64,000 nucleotides of DNA, taken from an uncultured Christensenella sp. GTDB taxonomy: Bacteria; Bacillota; Clostridia; Christensenellales; UBA3700. Both the position numbers and the translations under genes were made by a program. Positions 1-18,441 of the stretch are shown here, piece by piece. The stretch lies in NCBI GenBank assembly GCA_949287655.1, contig CASEHD010000009.1, forward strand, positions 96,223 through 160,222, given 5' to 3'. The notes beneath the pieces were generated by a model. The model did no database searches and had not been told where the DNA came from. It saw nothing but the letters and a program-made list of their open reading frames with translations. Numbering within the stretch: the stretch's first letter is position 1; each line of letters starts with the position of its first letter.

Positions 1-965
1 GTGTTCGCGACCTTCTGCACCTTTTCCTTGTCGCCTTCACCGACCGTCTTGCCGGTCAGCACGGCGGCGGCGTTGGATACGCCCATAATGCCGACGAGGG
101 ATATCTGATTGACAACCGTCGCTATGCTGCCCGCCGCGATGAAATCGTCGCTGAGGTTGCTTATGATAAGGGTTATCATAACTGTGCCGAAGCCCCAGAG
201 AAGCTCGTTCCCTACGACAGGCAGACAGCTTTTCATAAAAGGTTTCACCACGTCTGCCGCGCGTGAAAACACATGTCTTATCCTGAAGCCGGTGCGCTTG
301 TCGAACGCGTACATATATGTCAGAGACATTATAAATTCGCTTACTCTCGCCGCGACGGTGCCTATCGCCGCGCCCTTAACGCCCAACGCAGGCGCGCCTA
401 ATTTGCCGTAGATGAATACGTAGTTGACTGCGACGTTGATAAAGAAGGATATCCCGTATATCGCCATCGAAACGCCGACTTTCTCTACCGCGCGGAGCGA
501 CGTCATATAACAGTTGGAAAGACTGTAAAACACGTAACCTATCGAAATTATACTCAGATAATCCGCGCCGCTTTCTATCGTCGCGGGGTTGGACGTGAAC
601 AAGGACATCAGCTGACGCGGTATCGCGATACATACGACCGTGAACGCGAGCGAAACAAAAAACACCAGCCTTATCGCAAAACCCATTATCCTGCGGATAT
701 GATCCATTTCGTTCTTGCCCCAGTACTGGGCGATCATAACGTTCGCGCCGCTGGCTATCCCGAAGACGAACATCGTAAGCAGAAAGAAGGGCTGTCCGCC
801 GAGATTCGCTGCGGATATCGCAACGTCGCCCAGCTGACCCAGCATTACCGAGTCCATAAGGTTTACGCCGTAATTGATCACGTTCTGCAGCGCTATCGGC
901 AATATTATCGCGATCGCGCCGAAAAGAAATCTTTTGTTGAGTAAAAACCTGTCCTTGAGTCCCAT
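1..965 (-). CDS. MATE family efflux transporter (N-terminal ~321 codons; gene continues past window start)
   Basis: Absent from the ORF track because it runs off the window. Reverse translation from ATG at 965-963 gives MGLKDRFLLNKRFLFGAIAIILPIALQNVINYGVNLMDSVMLGQLG... At the window edge it reads ...ATVVNQISLVGIMGVSNAAAVLTGKTVGEGDKEKVQKVAN. The frame is uninterrupted, hydrophobic and multi-TM, typical of MATE exporters. Confidence 0.7.
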   Translation of the reverse strand, partial: MGLKDRFLLNKRFLFGAIAIILPIALQNVINYGVNLMDSVMLGQLGDVAISAANLGGQPFFLLTMFVFGIASGANVMIAQYWGKNEMDHIRRIMGFAIRLVFFVSLAFTVVCIAIPRQLMSLFTSNPATIESGADYLSIISIGYVFYSLSNCYMTSLRAVEKVGVSMAIYGISFFINVAVNYVFIYGKLGAPALGVKGAAIGTVAARVSEFIMSLTYMYAFDKRTGFRIRHVFSRAADVVKPFMKSCLPVVGNELLWGFGTVMITLIISNLSDDFIAAGSIATVVNQISLVGIMGVSNAAAVLTGKTVGEGDKEKVQKVAN

Positions 966-1137
966 AGCCACTCTATTATAACAACACCCGCCGACTTAGG
1001 CAAGCATAATTATCTGCTCGCGTTTTTCTCAAAACATTCCTTACAAAAAACTTACCGTATCCGTACAAAACAGTGATAGCGCGAAAAAAACGGAACGTAT
1101 AAGATGTATAATCGTACAGCGACTGAAAAGGTGAAAT

Positions 1138-14309: not shown

Positions 14310-17255
14310 ATGGGTATGGATAAACCCTTTATAAAAAGAGCGATCGCAACCCCCAATCACGTTGCGAATATCCTTAACATCAAGAGTCGCTGTTACACGA
14401 AGATAGCGGATCTCAAAGCCGAAGTCATAAAAAGCGACGAGCCGATACGCTTCGAGGACCTGGACAAAAACGCGTTTAAGCCCGCGCATATCATGGAAAA
14501 ATGGGCGGACAAGTTCGGTTGCGCCTGGTTCCGTTTCACAGGAAAGGTGCCTGAGACAGCGAAAGGTTCTCACGTCGTTTTAAGAATAAAACTGCAGGGC
14601 GAAGGTCTCGTGTTCAACGAGGACGGAATAGTCCTGCAAGGCATCACGCAGATCGTCAGCAAGGGCGATATCTTCCACTCGCTGGTCGGCAAACAGGTCG
14701 TCGACGTTGCGGACTGCTCCACCGGCAATGAGGAGATAAAGCTGTATGTCGACGCGGGTTTCAACGGCAAACTTCGCTTTGAAAAACTGGTCGCAAGACT
14801 GCGCCGCTGCGACATAAGCATCTTAAACGAGGCGGTCAATCAATATTATTACGACTATATCGACCTGTATTTCACGATGCTGAAGCTGGACAAATCCAAC
14901 CCGCGCACGGCGGAGATAGACAAGGTTCTCAAAGACTCCTTCAAGGCGTTCAAAAAGAACGGCGCGACGGCGGCGAGAGAGATACTTAAGCCGCAGTTCG
15001 AAAAACCCGTATTCGACAAACAGACCGAATATTACTGCATAGGTCACGCGCATATAGACCTCGCGTGGCTGTGGCCTTTGAGAGAGACAAAGCGCAAAGT
15101 CGCGAGAACGTTCGCAAATCAGCTCAGAAACATAAAAAAATACGACGATTTCATATTCGCCGAATCCCAGCCCCAGATGTGGGTATGGCTCAAAGAGGGC
15201 TACCCCGACCTGTACGAAAAGGCGAAAAAGGCTGTTGAGGACGGCAGGATAGAGCTTCAAGGCAAGATGTGGGTCGAAAGCGATACCAATCTGACCGGCG
15301 GCGAAAGCTGGATAAGGCAGTCTCTTTACGGCGATAAGTTCTGGAAACAGGAGTTCGGCAAGGATATCAACCTGTGCTGGCTGCCCGACGTCTTCGGATT
15401 CCCCGCATCCCTTCCGCAGGTCATTAAAGGCTGCGGCATGGACTATTTCATGACGATAAAGATTCTCAGCAACACCGTCAACCAGTTCCCCTATAAGACT
15501 TTCAACTGGGTGGGCATAGACGGCACGACGCTGCTCGCGCATATGGAGCCTCTCGGCGACTACAACGCGGGCGCATCCCCTCTTGCGATATTCAAAGGCA
15601 ATATGCGCAATACGGAAAAGGACATAATCCCCAAAGCGCTGCTGATATACGGCGACGGCGACGGCGGCGGCGGTCCGGGCGAAGGTCATATCGAATATGT
15701 CAAGAGACATAAAAAGCTGTTCAACTGCAAGGTCAGCAAGTCAATAAGCCTGTTTGAAGACTTAGAGCCTTACCGCGAGATAATGCCGACGCATAAGGGC
15801 GAATTGTATTATGAACGTCACCAGGGCAGCTACACCTCTCAGGCGCGCTCCAAAAAATTCAACCGCAAGATCGAATATCTGCTCCACAAGGTGGAGTGGC
15901 TGGGCGCGGTCGCAAAACTGAGCGGCGCAAAATACGATTTCGACGAGATGGAAGAGATATGGAAAGAGATCCTTCTCTATCAATTCCACGACATACTGCC
16001 CGGCACTTCTATAAAGAGAGTTTACGACGAAAGCCTCGCAAGGTATCAGATAATTTCCGACCGCCTGGACGAAATGGCGAAAAATATCTTGCTCGCGGGC
16101 AAAGAAGAAGGGACGCTTTCCGCGCTCAACCCGACAAACTTCGAAAGAACGGAATGGGTCAAAAACGGCGACGACTGGTATAAGCTGACCCTTGCGCCGT
16201 ACAGCGTGAGCAAGCTGCCCGAAGCGGCTGTTCCCGATTCTTCCTCCCTCTCATTCGACGACTATACGTTGCAGAATTCCCGCGTCCGCGTCGTGTTCGA
16301 CACGAACGGCGAGATAACCTCTCTGTACGACAAAGAGGGCGACAAGGAGATCGTCGGCAAGTACTTCAATAAGTTCACGATATACAGCGACCCGTTTATG
16401 TACTACAACGCGTGGGACATAAATATCCATTATCAGGAGATGAAAAAGTGGGATATGAAACTGGTCGGCGTGCGTTCTTATATCGACGGCGCGAAAGTCG
16501 TCAGAGAACAGACCTTCAAGTACGATAAATCCACGCTCGTGCAGAAGATATCCCTTACCGTCGACGACAATATGGTCAGATTCGATACGACCGTCGACTG
16601 GGACGAACGCTTCAAGATGCTGAGAGCGGACTTTATCCCCGCATTCTTCGCGGACGAGGTCAACTGCGACATTCAGTTCGGCACCTTCAACCGCACGACA
16701 AAACAGGAAAACAGCGTGGACTGGGCGCAGTTCGAGATATGCGCGCATAAGTACGTGAATATCGACGGTCCCGACTACGGCTTCGCGCTGATAAACGACT
16801 GTAAGTACGGTCACCGCGCGAAAGACGGCTTCCTCAGCCTGTGCCTGCTCCGTTCGCCCGAATTCCCCGACCCTACCTGCGACATCTGCACGCATACGTT
16901 CAGCTACGCTATACTGCCGCACAAAGCGCCGCTTACCCAAAGCGACGTACAGGCGCGCGCGTACTGTTTCAACCAGCCGATAGAGATCGTCGAAGCGGCG
17001 AATCCCGTAAACACATTCGCGACCACGGACGGAGACGGCGTTATCATCGAAACGGTCAAACCCGCCGAAAGCGGCGAAGGCACTCTGCTCAGAATATACG
17101 AGTGCAAGGGTAAGAACTGCACGGTGAAGCTTACCCCGAACGTAAAATTCAAAAAGGCGTACGACTGCGACATGCTCGAAAATATCAAAGGCGAGACGGA
17201 TATAGACAAGCTCATATTCCGTCCATGGGAGATAAAGACGATAATAATTAAATAA
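14310..17255 (+). CDS. Glycoside hydrolase family 38 alpha-mannosidase
   Basis: 981 aa. It has the GH38 N-terminal catalytic signature CIGHAHIDLAWLWPLRETKRK. DVFGF and YGDGDGGGGPG are also present, and the length and architecture are typical of cytoplasmic bacterial GH38 enzymes. Confidence 0.85.
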   Translation: MGMDKPFIKRAIATPNHVANILNIKSRCYTKIADLKAEVIKSDEPIRFEDLDKNAFKPAHIMEKWADKFGCAWFRFTGKVPETAKGSHVVLRIKLQGEGLVFNEDGIVLQGITQIVSKGDIFHSLVGKQVVDVADCSTGNEEIKLYVDAGFNGKLRFEKLVARLRRCDISILNEAVNQYYYDYIDLYFTMLKLDKSNPRTAEIDKVLKDSFKAFKKNGATAAREILKPQFEKPVFDKQTEYYCIGHAHIDLAWLWPLRETKRKVARTFANQLRNIKKYDDFIFAESQPQMWVWLKEGYPDLYEKAKKAVEDGRIELQGKMWVESDTNLTGGESWIRQSLYGDKFWKQEFGKDINLCWLPDVFGFPASLPQVIKGCGMDYFMTIKILSNTVNQFPYKTFNWVGIDGTTLLAHMEPLGDYNAGASPLAIFKGNMRNTEKDIIPKALLIYGDGDGGGGPGEGHIEYVKRHKKLFNCKVSKSISLFEDLEPYREIMPTHKGELYYERHQGSYTSQARSKKFNRKIEYLLHKVEWLGAVAKLSGAKYDFDEMEEIWKEILLYQFHDILPGTSIKRVYDESLARYQIISDRLDEMAKNILLAGKEEGTLSALNPTNFERTEWVKNGDDWYKLTLAPYSVSKLPEAAVPDSSSLSFDDYTLQNSRVRVVFDTNGEITSLYDKEGDKEIVGKYFNKFTIYSDPFMYYNAWDINIHYQEMKKWDMKLVGVRSYIDGAKVVREQTFKYDKSTLVQKISLTVDDNMVRFDTTVDWDERFKMLRADFIPAFFADEVNCDIQFGTFNRTTKQENSVDWAQFEICAHKYVNIDGPDYGFALINDCKYGHRAKDGFLSLCLLRSPEFPDPTCDICTHTFSYAILPHKAPLTQSDVQARAYCFNQPIEIVEAANPVNTFATTDGDGVIIETVKPAESGEGTLLRIYECKGKNCTVKLTPNVKFKKAYDCDMLENIKGETDIDKLIFRPWEIKTIIIK

Positions 17256-17369
17256 CTTACCGACTAACAAAAAAACACAACCGCCGCGGTTTTGATGTGT
17301 ACCCCGAAAGTCAGACACTTTTGGAGGTGCATATTTCATGGCAAAAAAGGACAAGAACACGAGAAGTAT

Positions 17370-17510
17370 ACCAGACCGGAATAATACGAACAAGGTTTAA
17401 AGCGGCAAATTTTCGTAGCTACTGCGTTAAATGCCTTGATAATATGTCTGATATTACCTGCGGAATTTGCCTTTTATCAACAAAAATTTGCCGGCTTAAA
17501 ACTGCATGCA
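17370..17510. repeat. Copy A of a 141-nt tandemly duplicated intergenic element
   Basis: Near-identical to 17578-17718 (period 208 nt). It contains GGCAAATT at 17404-17411 and its complement AATTTGCC at 17464-17471 and 17485-17492. It also has the palindrome GTAGCTAC (17415-17422) and the hairpin TAATAT-GTCTG-ATATTA. Confidence 0.85.
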
Positions 17511-17577
17511 CCCTCAGGCGATGATTTTTAGTGTGTGTTTCAGCGAGGCGAACGCAGATAATATTATAATATTTTCA

Positions 17578-17718
17578 ACCAGACCAGAATAATACGAACC
17601 TGGTTTAAAGCGGCAAATTTTCGCAGCTGCTGTGTTAAATACCTTGCTAATATGTCTGATATTACCTGCGGAATTTGCCTTTTATCAACAAAAATTTGCC
17701 GGCTTTAAACTGCATACA
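17578..17718. repeat. Copy B of the 141-nt tandemly duplicated intergenic element
   Basis: Aligns base for base with copy A, with roughly 12 substitutions and no indels. The palindrome here is GCAGCTGC (17623-17630). A TATAAT lies about 7 nt upstream of the element. Confidence 0.85.
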
Positions 17719-17845
17719 CTCTAAGGATTTCGACAACGTGAATTTAAAACGCATTACGGCAAACTCTTGATAATTTAAAGATAAACAGCCGGACTCACGC
17801 CGGCGCGGAAAACGCGTTCACGGCTCCGCCCCGTCCGCGCCTTTT

Positions 17846-17876
17846 AAAAACAAAAAGAGGAGACTTCCGTCTCCCC
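17846..17876 (-). terminator. Rho-independent terminator of the nfeD-floA operon
   Basis: The minus strand reads GGAGAC-GGAA-GTCTCC followed by TCTTTTTGTTTTT. Confidence 0.7.
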
Positions 17877-17895
17877 GAATTTTCGCTTTTACTTC

Positions 17896-18441
17896 TTATT
17901 TTTTATACGCCGGGTCGTTGATTACCTCACCCAGGATTATCGCCTTCCTTACGTCGTCCGGGCTTATCACCATTTTGCCGCCGCCGTTTTCCTGCTCGTT
18001 TATCTTGACGAAACGCAGGTTGTAATGCTCGCGGCAGCCTTCGTCGCTTTCGCCGCCTATGCTGCCGGAAACGGGTACCTTTTCGACGATGTACAAGTCC
18101 TCGTCCTCATGGGAATCAACGTCGCAATGCTTGTCGTGGTGCGAGCTCGTTACGCCTACGACCTCGGCGGACGTATGCACCCCGGGGCGATTTTCGACAA
18201 GGTCGGTACCCTTAACGGGACGCGCGGGCTTAACGTACTTTCTGACGGAAGCCTTCTTTACGGCTGCCGTATTTGCAGGTTCTGCAAACGGATCGCCGTC
18301 AAGCCGCGGACGCGCGTTCTGCGCGCCCGCGGTCTGATTGTTTTTCTTCTTTTTCCCCGACTTTACCGACGCGGTTATCATGATCGAGAAAAAGACCACG
18401 AGAAACGCGACGAATATCGGTATAAAAGTACCCAGCGTCAT
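17896..18441 (-). CDS. Membrane-anchored hypothetical protein, third gene of the flotillin operon (positional equivalent of yqfB)
   Basis: 181 aa with an N-terminal TM ([22 protein letters not shown]) followed by a basic stretch. The C-terminal half is rich in His/Asp/Glu/Cys. The ATGA overlap with the floA stop indicates translational coupling. I recognise no family. Confidence 0.55.

What the first reader, a model, noticed from the sequence alone, without database searches (positions are those of the whole stretch)
17256..17895. Tandemly duplicated 141-nt structured element in a 640-bp gap between convergent genes
The GH38 gene ends at 17255 and the flotillin operon ends at 17896, so neither needs a promoter here, yet 640 bp separate them. 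Two copies of a 141-nt element (17370-17510 and 17578-17718, period 208) differ by about 12 substitutions and no indels.

Each copy has one GGCAAATT box and two complementary AATTTGCC boxes. In copy A these are at 17404, 17464 and 17485. That gives two mutually exclusive pairings for the first box, and the first of these pairings is followed by TTTTAT. Each copy also has a conserved hairpin TAATAT-GTCTG-ATATTA.

The 8-nt palindrome GTAGCTAC in copy A is GCAGCTGC in copy B. Two substitutions preserve the symmetry, which is consistent with selection on pairing or on a dimeric binding site.

Copy B is preceded by TATAAT. Copy A is preceded by a GGAGGT RBS plus a 20-codon ORF (17338-17400, MAKKDKNTRSIPDRNNTNKV) whose last 9 codons lie inside the element. 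Candidates are a duplicated sRNA or riboswitch-like RNA, a MITE-like insertion, or a protein-binding array.
Basis: seen in the sequence. Interest (0 to 1): 0.6.

Follow-up and report, generated by a model that had tools for sequence, protein, structure and literature searches.

The report
Two broken MITE copies, not RNA gene
The "tandem structured element" is two truncated, side-by-side copies of a small non-coding jumping element (a MITE) that litters this gut Clostridia genome, sitting in the wreck of an IS3 insertion sequence; it is ordinary genomic debris, although the MITE family itself seems undescribed and has an unusually well-conserved fold.

Summary
They are not a local RNA gene. They are the left parts of two members of a ~281-nt MITE family. 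The family has 25-nt terminal inverted repeats, inserts at AT (consensus T-AT-A) with an apparent 2-bp duplication, and has about 37 loci in this 1.9-Mb genome. Dozens more occur in most congeners (Christensenellales, genus of Ca. Ornithoclostridium), and a ~60%-identical sister subfamily occurs in other genera. Both window copies lack the right end, so they are immobile relics. The "RBS + 20-codon ORF" is the left end and orfA start of an IS3-family element into which copy A inserted. Relatives have no MITE in this gap. There is no Rfam hit.

One structural claim survives. The first GGCAAATT box, the second AATTTGCC box and the TAATAT hairpin form a stem-loop domain kept by compensatory changes between subfamilies. 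The alternative pairing/terminator and the "symmetry-preserving" palindrome change are not conserved. No autonomous parent or transposase was found. The MITE's terminal 23-mer is identical to a conserved hairpin just behind tRNA-Leu genes in related genera, which is unexplained.

The parts
14310..17255 (+). GH38 alpha-mannosidase gene (left flank, context)
   Evidence: ORF list. Pfam Glyco_hydro_38N/38C/Alpha-mann_mid, E 3e-70.
17270..17292 (+). Remnant of the GH38 terminator. Only the left arm (ACAACCGCCGCGG) is left. The closest relative G001 has the full hairpin CGACCGCCGCG-ATCTTA-CGCGGCGGTC-TTTTT.
   Evidence: Comparison of the gaps, read directly from the sequence.
17293..17369 (+). Relic of the left end of an IS3-family insertion sequence: terminal TGATGTG..., RBS GGAGGT, and the first 11 codons of orfA.
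   Evidence: 84-87% identical to at least 10 copies at contig ends of the same genome. A full copy in G001 (L298) encodes HTH_21 + rve + rve_2.
17370..17577 (+). MITE copy A. It covers element positions 1 to about 210 of 277 (core numbering). The left TIR is intact (ACCAGACCGGAATAATACGAAC). About 70 nt on the right, including the right TIR, are missing. It inserted at the T-AT-A site (GTAT|A) of the IS3 orfA.
   Evidence: BLAST to the reference copy C15:17754-18034; junction read.
17394..17503 (.). Conserved stem-loop domain of copy A. The outer interrupted 17-bp stem is 17394-17412 / 17484-17503 (Box1 with the second AATTTGCC box). The inner hairpin is 17440-17445 / 17451-17456.
   Evidence: RNAalifold and pair counts on alignment A1: 98.4% of cells paired, 7 pairs with changes on both sides. 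Fold z-scores: -1.2 (+) and -3.9 (-).
17578..17726 (+). MITE copy B. It covers element positions 1 to about 149. The left TIR is intact and the right half is missing. It is joined directly to an internal position of copy A with no AT target, so the junction is not a canonical insertion.
   Evidence: The same domain lies at 17602-17620 / 17692-17711, with the hairpin at 17648-17664 (z -2.4 on +, -4.5 on -).
17727..17856 (.). Unique spacer with no other copy in the genome. It holds one terminator-like hairpin on the minus strand (17788-17804).
   Evidence: BLAST of the gap in pieces; terminator scan.
17857..17876 (-). Intrinsic terminator of the nfeD-floA operon: GGGGAGAC-GGAA-GTCTCCTC followed by TTTTTGTTTT.
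   Evidence: Terminator scan.
17896..18441 (-). 181-aa last gene of the nfeD-floA operon (right flank, context). It has no Pfam family.

Best explanation
The two repeats are dead, 3'-truncated copies of a non-autonomous DNA transposon (a MITE).

The family:
- It is about 281 nt long and has no ORF.
- It carries 25-nt terminal inverted repeats: (AT)ACCAGACCAGAATAATACGAACC ... GGTTCGTATTATTCTGGKCTGGT(AT).
- A transposase or recombinase supplied in trans is inferred to recognise the repeats.
- It inserts at an AT dinucleotide (consensus T-AT-A) and leaves AT on both sides.

Most likely history of this gap (inferred order):
1. An IS3-family element inserted just behind the GH38 terminator.
2. A MITE inserted into the TATA of its orfA, at codon 11.
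3. A second copy came to lie head-to-tail beside it. Intact head-to-tail dimers sharing one AT exist in a congener.
4. Deletions then removed the right part of each MITE and the remaining ~1.2 kb of the IS3.
5. Partial gene conversion homogenised the central 54 nt of the two copies.

Neither copy can move now, because each has only one TIR.

The boxes and the hairpin are family features. They form a stem-loop domain that is conserved by compensatory change. Selection most likely acts on the element's own propagation, through DNA hairpins or recombinase sites. It does not reflect a function serving the GH38 or floA genes.

Shown: family membership, TIRs, empty sites, truncation, IS3 identity, covariation.
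Inferred: the order of events, the trans-acting enzyme, and the level (DNA or RNA) at which the fold is selected.
For: - Copy number: about 37 loci on both strands across 20 or more contigs of the own genome, 86-96% identical, including many internal-deletion derivatives of 144-300 nt.
- TIRs: both are present in 21 own-genome copies.
- Flanks: 49 non-redundant insertions have A 99% and T 97% at the two flanking positions and T 73% at -3.
- Empty sites: for C11:42647, the filled site reads GCCGCTT-AT-[element]-AT-CGCGGC. The empty sites read GCCGCTTGTCGCGGC in G013 and CCGCAGATCGCGG in G007. More are seen for C3:112219 in 7 congeners, and for L159 against the own genome.
- Distribution: 11 of 15 genomes of the genus carry the TIR, with very uneven loads from 0 to 74 hits. 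It is absent from other genera of the family at the DNA level. A homologous B subfamily occurs in other genera.
- The orthologous GH38-floA gap in 7 congeners holds no MITE.
- Copy A is nearer to dispersed copies than to copy B.
- IS3 relic.
- No Rfam family.
- Covariation of the stem-loop domain.
- A head-to-tail dimer sharing one AT is seen in L022/L183.
- Earlier first-stage notes from other windows of this genome flagged the same family independently. These are leads only.
Against: - No autonomous element with these TIRs was found, and no transposase was found next to any TIR. Collections searched: the own genome, congeners (17, 32-36), public genomes (25-27, 51-53), viral contigs (56), metagenome contigs (57-58), plasmids and phages (86-87).
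- The A-B junction is not a canonical AT insertion, so the dimer-plus-deletion history is a reconstruction.
An expressed RNA riding on the element is therefore not excluded.
- The compensatory changes rest essentially on one deep split (subfamily A versus B).
Confidence: 0.88

Rival explanations
1. The stem-loop domain carried by the element is a functional small RNA or cis-regulatory RNA (for example a terminator, an RNA-stability element or an antisense RNA). The two copies here act on the GH38 3' end, whose own terminator has lost its right arm.
For: - The domain is conserved through compensatory changes.
- It folds stably, especially on the minus strand, with z -3.9 and -4.5.
- Promoter-like hexamers occur on the minus strand inside each copy.
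- The GH38 terminator is truncated, so read-through into the element is plausible.
Against: - There is no Rfam match.
- The Box1-Box2 alternative pairing with TTTTAT is not conserved, and one of its pairs exists only in these two copies.
- The inner modules are swapped between subfamilies.
- Copies lie in all gene contexts and both orientations (a rough estimate).
- G-U and A-C departures give no strand preference.
- The promoter hits are only consensus matches, counted twice because the unit is duplicated.
Confidence: 0.08
2. This is a neutral local tandem duplication of a unique intergenic segment.
For: The two copies are adjacent and in direct orientation, have no indels, and share a 54-nt identical core with two derived states (GGAATTTGCCTTTTATC) seen in no other copy.
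Against: - About 37 dispersed copies exist in the genome and hundreds in relatives.
- Copy A is 94-96% identical to distant copies but only 91.8% to copy B.
- Each copy starts exactly at the family's TIR.
Confidence: 0.01
3. The element is moved by a site-specific recombinase, for example a large serine recombinase of islands integrated at tRNA-Leu genes, and not by a DDE transposase. The TIRs would be copies of the island's attachment-site arm, and the flanking AT would be the crossover dinucleotide.
For: - The terminal 23-mer ACCAGACCAGAATAATACGAACC is identical to the sequence that follows ...GC at the 3' end of tRNA-Leu genes of all five anticodons in related genera and metagenomes. There it forms a hairpin with GGTTCGTATTATT plus a T-run.
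- A 2-nt palindromic flank (AT here, GC there) fits a crossover dinucleotide.
- One such island carries a large serine recombinase with Resolvase, Recombinase and Zn_ribbon domains.
- Genomes G042 and G044 hold both MITEs and such sites.
Against: - The recombinase is found in only one of about 38 islands examined. The constant neighbour is a 220-aa HTH protein of unknown function.
- Homologues do not track MITE load in the genus. G013, the richest genome, has none.
- The own genome has the MITE but neither the hairpin site nor the HTH gene.
- MITE targets share only T-AT-A, unlike the roughly 40-bp sites of serine integrases (known from the literature; not tested here).
- The hairpin may simply be the tRNA-Leu terminator from which the TIRs were recruited.
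Confidence: 0.12

Closest known systems
Correia elements (CREE/NEMIS) of Neisseria and RUP of Streptococcus pneumoniae, the classical bacterial MITEs
   Same: They are 100-300 nt and non-coding, with ~26-nt TIRs and a 2-bp flanking duplication. They have many dispersed, mostly intergenic copies with internal-deletion variants. Their extensive self-complementarity makes them look like structured RNAs.
   Different: - Those duplicate TA and are linked to IS630-type transposases (from memory of the literature). Here the flanking dinucleotide is AT, and a TA duplication is excluded by the length of the empty sites.
- There is no sequence similarity.
- The host is Christensenellales.
- No parent IS is known.
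BOX elements of S. pneumoniae (modular boxA-boxB-boxC repeats)
   Same: Both have a mosaic, modular interior with modules gained, lost or swapped between copies, and conserved stem-loop potential.
   Different: BOX elements lack long perfect TIRs and a defined target duplication. In this family the TIRs are the best-conserved part.
IS30-family insertion sequences
   Same: They have a 2-3-bp target duplication and 20-30-nt IRs. Head-to-tail junctions have the two IRs abutted and separated by 2 bp, as in the L022 dimer.
   Different: IS30-family transposase genes occur only in G001 (intact) and G011 (fragments), and their ends do not resemble the MITE TIR. This is a mechanistic analogy only.
Genomic islands and small cassettes integrated at tRNA 3' ends
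   Same: The MITE's terminal 23-mer equals the conserved sequence directly behind tRNA-Leu genes where such islands or cassettes sit. Duplicated 21-nt tRNA tails are present, including in the own genome on contig C16.
   Different: The MITE inserts at many AT sites, has inverted ends and not direct att repeats, and carries no tRNA tail beyond ACCA.

Membership tests
MITE (non-autonomous DNA transposon), the family as a whole | Short (under about 600 nt) with no coding capacity | tested here: met
   The canonical length is 276-281 nt and variants run from 144 to 510 nt. The element holds no ORF.
MITE (non-autonomous DNA transposon), the family as a whole | Terminal inverted repeats | tested here: met
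   25-nt TIRs with 0-2 mismatches in 21 own-genome copies.
MITE (non-autonomous DNA transposon), the family as a whole | Many dispersed copies at unrelated sites | tested here: met
   About 37 loci in the own genome, and 11 of 15 congeners carry it.
MITE (non-autonomous DNA transposon), the family as a whole | Precise insertions with a target-site duplication, shown by empty sites | tested here: met
   Empty sites in congeners are exactly the element plus 2 nt shorter, and AT flanks both ends. The sequence cannot tell whether AT is duplicated or the element (T...A) sits between A and T.
MITE (non-autonomous DNA transposon), the family as a whole | An autonomous relative with the same TIRs that encodes the transposase | tested here: inconclusive
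   None was found in any collection searched. Repeats are collapsed or binned out of these MAGs. For example, the IS3 interior is also missing from this assembly.
Intact, mobilisable MITE copy (the two window copies) | Both TIRs present | tested here: not met
   Copy A stops at about position 210 and copy B at about 149. There is no right TIR anywhere in 17256-17895.
Known structured RNA family / riboswitch | Match to an Rfam covariance model | tested here: not met
   The best E-values are 1.7-5.9, far below the gathering scores. The full-length copy gives no match at E<=1.
Known structured RNA family / riboswitch | Conserved mutually exclusive (switching) helices | tested here: not met
   The Box1-Box2 helix has 4 of 8 pairs unpaired in all subfamily-B sequences. 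The Box1-Box3 helix is conserved.
IS630/Tc1-mariner-derived MITE (Correia, RUP type) | TA target-site duplication | tested here: not met
   A TA duplication predicts a 13-nt empty site at C11:42647. Both relatives show 15 nt.
IS30-derived MITE | IS30-family transposase gene bounded by the same IRs | tested here: not met
   NF033563 hits occur only in G001 and G011, and no TIR-like sequence with 7 or fewer mismatches lies nearby.
IS3 family (the relic at 17293-17369) | Terminal TG..., an orfA start right after the IR, and an orfB with a DDE (rve) domain in full copies | tested here: met
   The relic aligns at 87.5% to the left end of the 1.3-kb copy in L298, which encodes HTH_21, rve and rve_2.

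The most novel reading that the evidence does not exclude
The family may be a new kind of miniature element whose inverted ends are copies of the conserved trailer/hairpin that follows tRNA-Leu genes in Christensenellales. That is the arm next to which islands and tiny cassettes integrate. In this reading it is moved by the still-unidentified recombination system of those tRNA-Leu islands, with the palindromic flanking dinucleotide (AT here, GC at the tRNA) as the exchange point. Its covarying stem-loop domains would be required for that reaction, acting on folded DNA.
Probability: 0.12. Interest if true: 0.7.

Novelty: new member of a known kind. Interest (0 to 1): 0.3.

Why it matters
For this locus it matters little. 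The 640-bp gap is a graveyard of mobile-element fragments, not a regulatory RNA, and annotators should mask it.

The family is of modest interest for four reasons:
- It is an apparently undescribed, recently active MITE of uncultured gut Christensenellales. It breaks short-read assemblies and differs sharply in load between sister species, so it is useful as a strain or lineage marker.
- Its duplication is AT and not the usual TA.
- Its interior fold is kept by compensatory change across genera.
- Its ends equal the tRNA-Leu trailer, which hints at how MITE ends can be recruited or at an unknown mobilising enzyme.

Tried and rejected
- Rfam on the gap and on a full-length copy gave nothing. 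There are no tRNAs in the window.
- Search for an autonomous parent:
  - TIR pairs 0.3-6 kb apart in the own genome. The three candidates hold housekeeping genes, not transposases.
  - Orphan TIR hits in congeners and other genera lead to tRNA-Leu sites or truncated MITEs.
  - Viral contigs gave 0 hits.
  - Metagenome contigs gave 39 loci, all MITE ends or tRNA-Leu hairpins.
  - Plasmid and phage collections gave no match.
- IS30 family as parent: transposase genes are rare in the genus and their ends are unrelated.
- Large serine recombinase as mobiliser: confirmed in one island. It is not recurrent and is not correlated with MITE load.
- The IS3 element as parent was rejected because its ends (TGATGTGCACCCC...) are unrelated.
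- A TA-duplication parse was rejected by the length of the empty sites.
- A remnant of the IS3 right end in 17727-17895 was not found.
- The gene-context tally is too noisy, because it uses stop-to-stop ORFs, to claim any orientation bias.
- A literature search found no MITE described in Christensenellaceae. The second search returned nothing relevant.

Full report
**Observation.** The sequence is as described.
- The gap 17256-17895 lies between a GH38 alpha-mannosidase gene (14310-17255, +) and the last gene of an nfeD-floA operon (17896-18441, -).
- The repeat finder gives a two-copy direct repeat, 17370-17518 / 17578-17726: 149 nt, 92% identical, spacing 208, ungapped.
- All boxes, the hairpin, the two palindromes, the TATAAT and the short ORF are at the stated coordinates.

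**What it is.** The 149-nt unit is not local.
- It matches about 37 loci on both strands of 20 or more contigs of the same 1.94-Mb genome at 86-96% identity.
- It matches dozens of places in most, but not all, genomes of the same genus.
- Extending the best copies defines a ~281-nt element (reference G000:C15:17754-18034). Its 25-nt terminal inverted repeats are ATACCAGACCAGAATAATACGAACC / GGTTCGTATTATTCTGGGCTGGTAT.
- Many copies carry internal deletions (144-300 nt), and some carry extra modules (444 and 510 nt).
- In 49 non-redundant complete insertions the two bases next to the core are A (99%) and T (97%), preceded by T (73%). The target is therefore T-AT-A.

**Empty sites prove insertion.** I searched the joined flanks of 14 own-genome copies against the genus.
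- At C11:42647 the filled site reads GCCGCTT-AT-[ACCAG...CTGGT]-AT-CGCGGC. G013 has GCCGCTTGTCGCGGC and G007 has CCGCAGATCGCGG. Both are exactly the element plus 2 nt shorter. Here the site lies in the loop of a terminator-like hairpin.
- C3:112219 is empty in seven congeners.
- A copy in another species is empty in the own genome.
- A TA duplication, as in IS630-type MITEs, would predict a 13-nt empty site where 15 nt are seen, so it is rejected.
- Whether AT is duplicated or the element sits between A and T cannot be told from sequence.

**The window copies.**
- Copy A (17370-17577) covers positions 1 to about 210. Copy B (17578-17726) covers positions 1 to about 149. Neither has a right TIR, and none exists elsewhere in the gap.
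- Copy A's left junction is a canonical insertion (GAAGTAT|ACCAG) into another mobile element.
- 17293-17369 is 84-87% identical to a sequence found at ten or more contig ends of this assembly: TGATGTGCACCCCAAAAGTTAGACACTTTTGGAGGTGCATATTTTATGGCAAAAAAAGGG.... This is the left end and orfA start of an IS.
- A full 1.3-kb copy in G001 encodes HTH_21, rve and rve_2 domains, which identifies the IS3 family.
- The TATAAT 'upstream of copy B' is an internal part of copy A.
- Copy A is closer to dispersed copies (95.9% to C10:148858; 94.5% to copies in other species) than to copy B (91.8%). The pair is therefore not a recent local duplication.
- Their 12 differences all lie outside a 54-nt central block. 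That block is identical and carries two states unique to this pair, which suggests local gene conversion.
- Intact head-to-tail dimers sharing one AT exist in G005 (L022, L183). A dimer followed by deletions is the simplest history, but this is inferred.

**The orthologous gap in relatives** holds no MITE and varies widely.
- It is 280 nt in G009.
- It is 650 nt in G005, with a different ~95-nt repeat array.
- It is 1.1-1.4 kb, with an extra gene, in G012, G007, G006 and G011.
- G001 has different downstream genes altogether.
- G001 retains a full terminator hairpin behind GH38, of which the window keeps only the left arm.

**Structure.** The interior is mosaic.
- The first ~70 nt are shared by all A-type copies, while the inner modules are swapped. 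One subfamily replaces the TAATAT hairpin and both AATTTGCC boxes.
- A sister subfamily B has the TIR GCCGGACCGGAATAATACGAACC and is about 60% identical. It is found in other genera such as Ca. Limadaptatus. It is colinear with type A.
- I aligned 14 A-type and 8 B-type left halves (A1). RNAalifold predicts an interrupted 17-bp outer stem (Box1 with the second AATTTGCC box) enclosing the TAATAT/ATATTA hairpin.
- 98.4% of cells are paired, against 28-53% when partners are slid. Seven pairs changed on both sides, and 0 of 500 shuffles reached the observed covariation score. The caveat is that this is mostly one A/B split.
The 8-nt palindrome is not conserved in B.
- In A-type copies the palindrome shows single-sided variants beside GCAGCTGC.
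- The domain folds on both strands, more stably on the minus strand (z -3.9 and -4.5, against -1.2 and -2.4). Wobble and mismatch patterns give no strand. This fits a DNA-level palindrome as well as an RNA.
- There is no Rfam match.

**Who moves it.** This is unknown.
- No TIR-bounded coding element was found in any collection searched. IS interiors are missing from this MAG in any case.
- IS30 is a mechanistic analogue, with its 2-bp duplication and abutted IRs with a 2-bp spacer. However, IS30-family genes are rare in the genus and their ends are unrelated.

**An unexpected link.** The terminal 23-mer ACCAGACCAGAATAATACGAACC is identical to the sequence that starts at the discriminator-CCA of tRNA-Leu genes in related genera and gut metagenomes.
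- This holds for all five anticodons. There the 23-mer pairs with GGTTCGTATTATT and a T-run, forming a terminator-like hairpin. About 100 conserved nt and a 220-aa HTH ORF follow.
- Copies of the 21-nt tRNA tail without the tRNA body mark small cassettes stacked at these sites.
- One island carries a large serine recombinase. It is not recurrent, and homologues do not follow MITE load.
- The own genome has the MITE but neither the hairpin site nor the HTH gene.
- Two readings remain open. The TIRs may have been recruited from this tRNA-Leu trailer, or the two may share a recombinase.

**Verdict.** The feature is two immobile MITE relics inside an IS3 relic: a new member of a known kind, and ordinary at this locus.

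Noticed in passing
G000 contig ends (C3, C4, C8, C16, C23, C25, C29 both ends, C30, C31); window 17293-17369: An IS3-family element sits at ten or more contig ends, and its interior is absent from the MAG. It is a main cause of assembly breaks, and the window holds an 87%-identical left-end relic.
   Followed up: yes
L059, L070, L083, L112, L120, L166, L168-L171, L231, L261-L297 (other genera and metagenomes): The MITE's terminal 23-mer is identical to the sequence directly behind tRNA-Leu genes of all five anticodons. There it forms a terminator-like hairpin followed by a conserved 220-aa HTH ORF (MEMLVxKFSxGKYRNE...). Pfam gives only weak HTH/sigma70_r4 hits for that ORF.
   Followed up: partly
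G000:C16:1-990 (downstream of tRNA-Leu(caa) at 899-985, minus strand): Two small non-coding cassettes are stacked behind the tRNA. The first ends in an exact copy of the 21-nt tRNA tail (CAAGTCCCGCCTTCGGCACCA) and the second in a partial copy of it (CAAGTCCCGCCTTCC).
   Followed up: partly
L043 (G005) and L044 (G009), the gap after the GH38 ortholog: The orthologous gap holds a different tandem array of ~95-nt GC-rich units (GTCGCGGGGTCGTGGGACGACAGCC...GCTTAGCGACAGCC...). There are about 6 units in G005 and about 2.5 in G009. This is another repeat family and was not analysed.
   Followed up: no
L045-L048 (G012, G007, G006, G011), the gap after the GH38 ortholog: Four congeners have an extra minus-strand gene of about 300 aa between GH38 and the floA operon. 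It is missing in this genome. The gene was not identified.
   Followed up: no
window 17270-17292 vs L042 (G001): The GH38 terminator hairpin seen in the closest relative (CGACCGCCGCG-ATCTTA-CGCGGCGGTC-TTTTT) has lost its right arm here, at the point where the IS3 relic begins. GH38 transcripts may read into the relics.
   Followed up: partly
G000:C5:1-1060: A MITE right-end fragment (137-250) lies 130 nt from an N-terminally truncated large serine recombinase gene (378-1058). This is probably another decayed mobile-element cluster.
   Followed up: partly
window 17446-17499 vs 17654-17707: The central 54 nt of copies A and B are identical and share two states found in no other copy, while the flanking parts differ at 12 positions. 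This mosaic pattern suggests gene conversion between the neighbouring copies.
   Followed up: partly
window 17896-18441 (-): The 181-aa third gene of the nfeD-floA operon has no Pfam family at E<=0.01.
   Followed up: no
L022 (G005:C65:5515-6004), L183 (G005:C123): Intact head-to-tail MITE dimers in which the right TIR of one copy and the left TIR of the next are separated by a single AT. This resembles the IR-IR junctions of IS30-type elements.
   Followed up: partly
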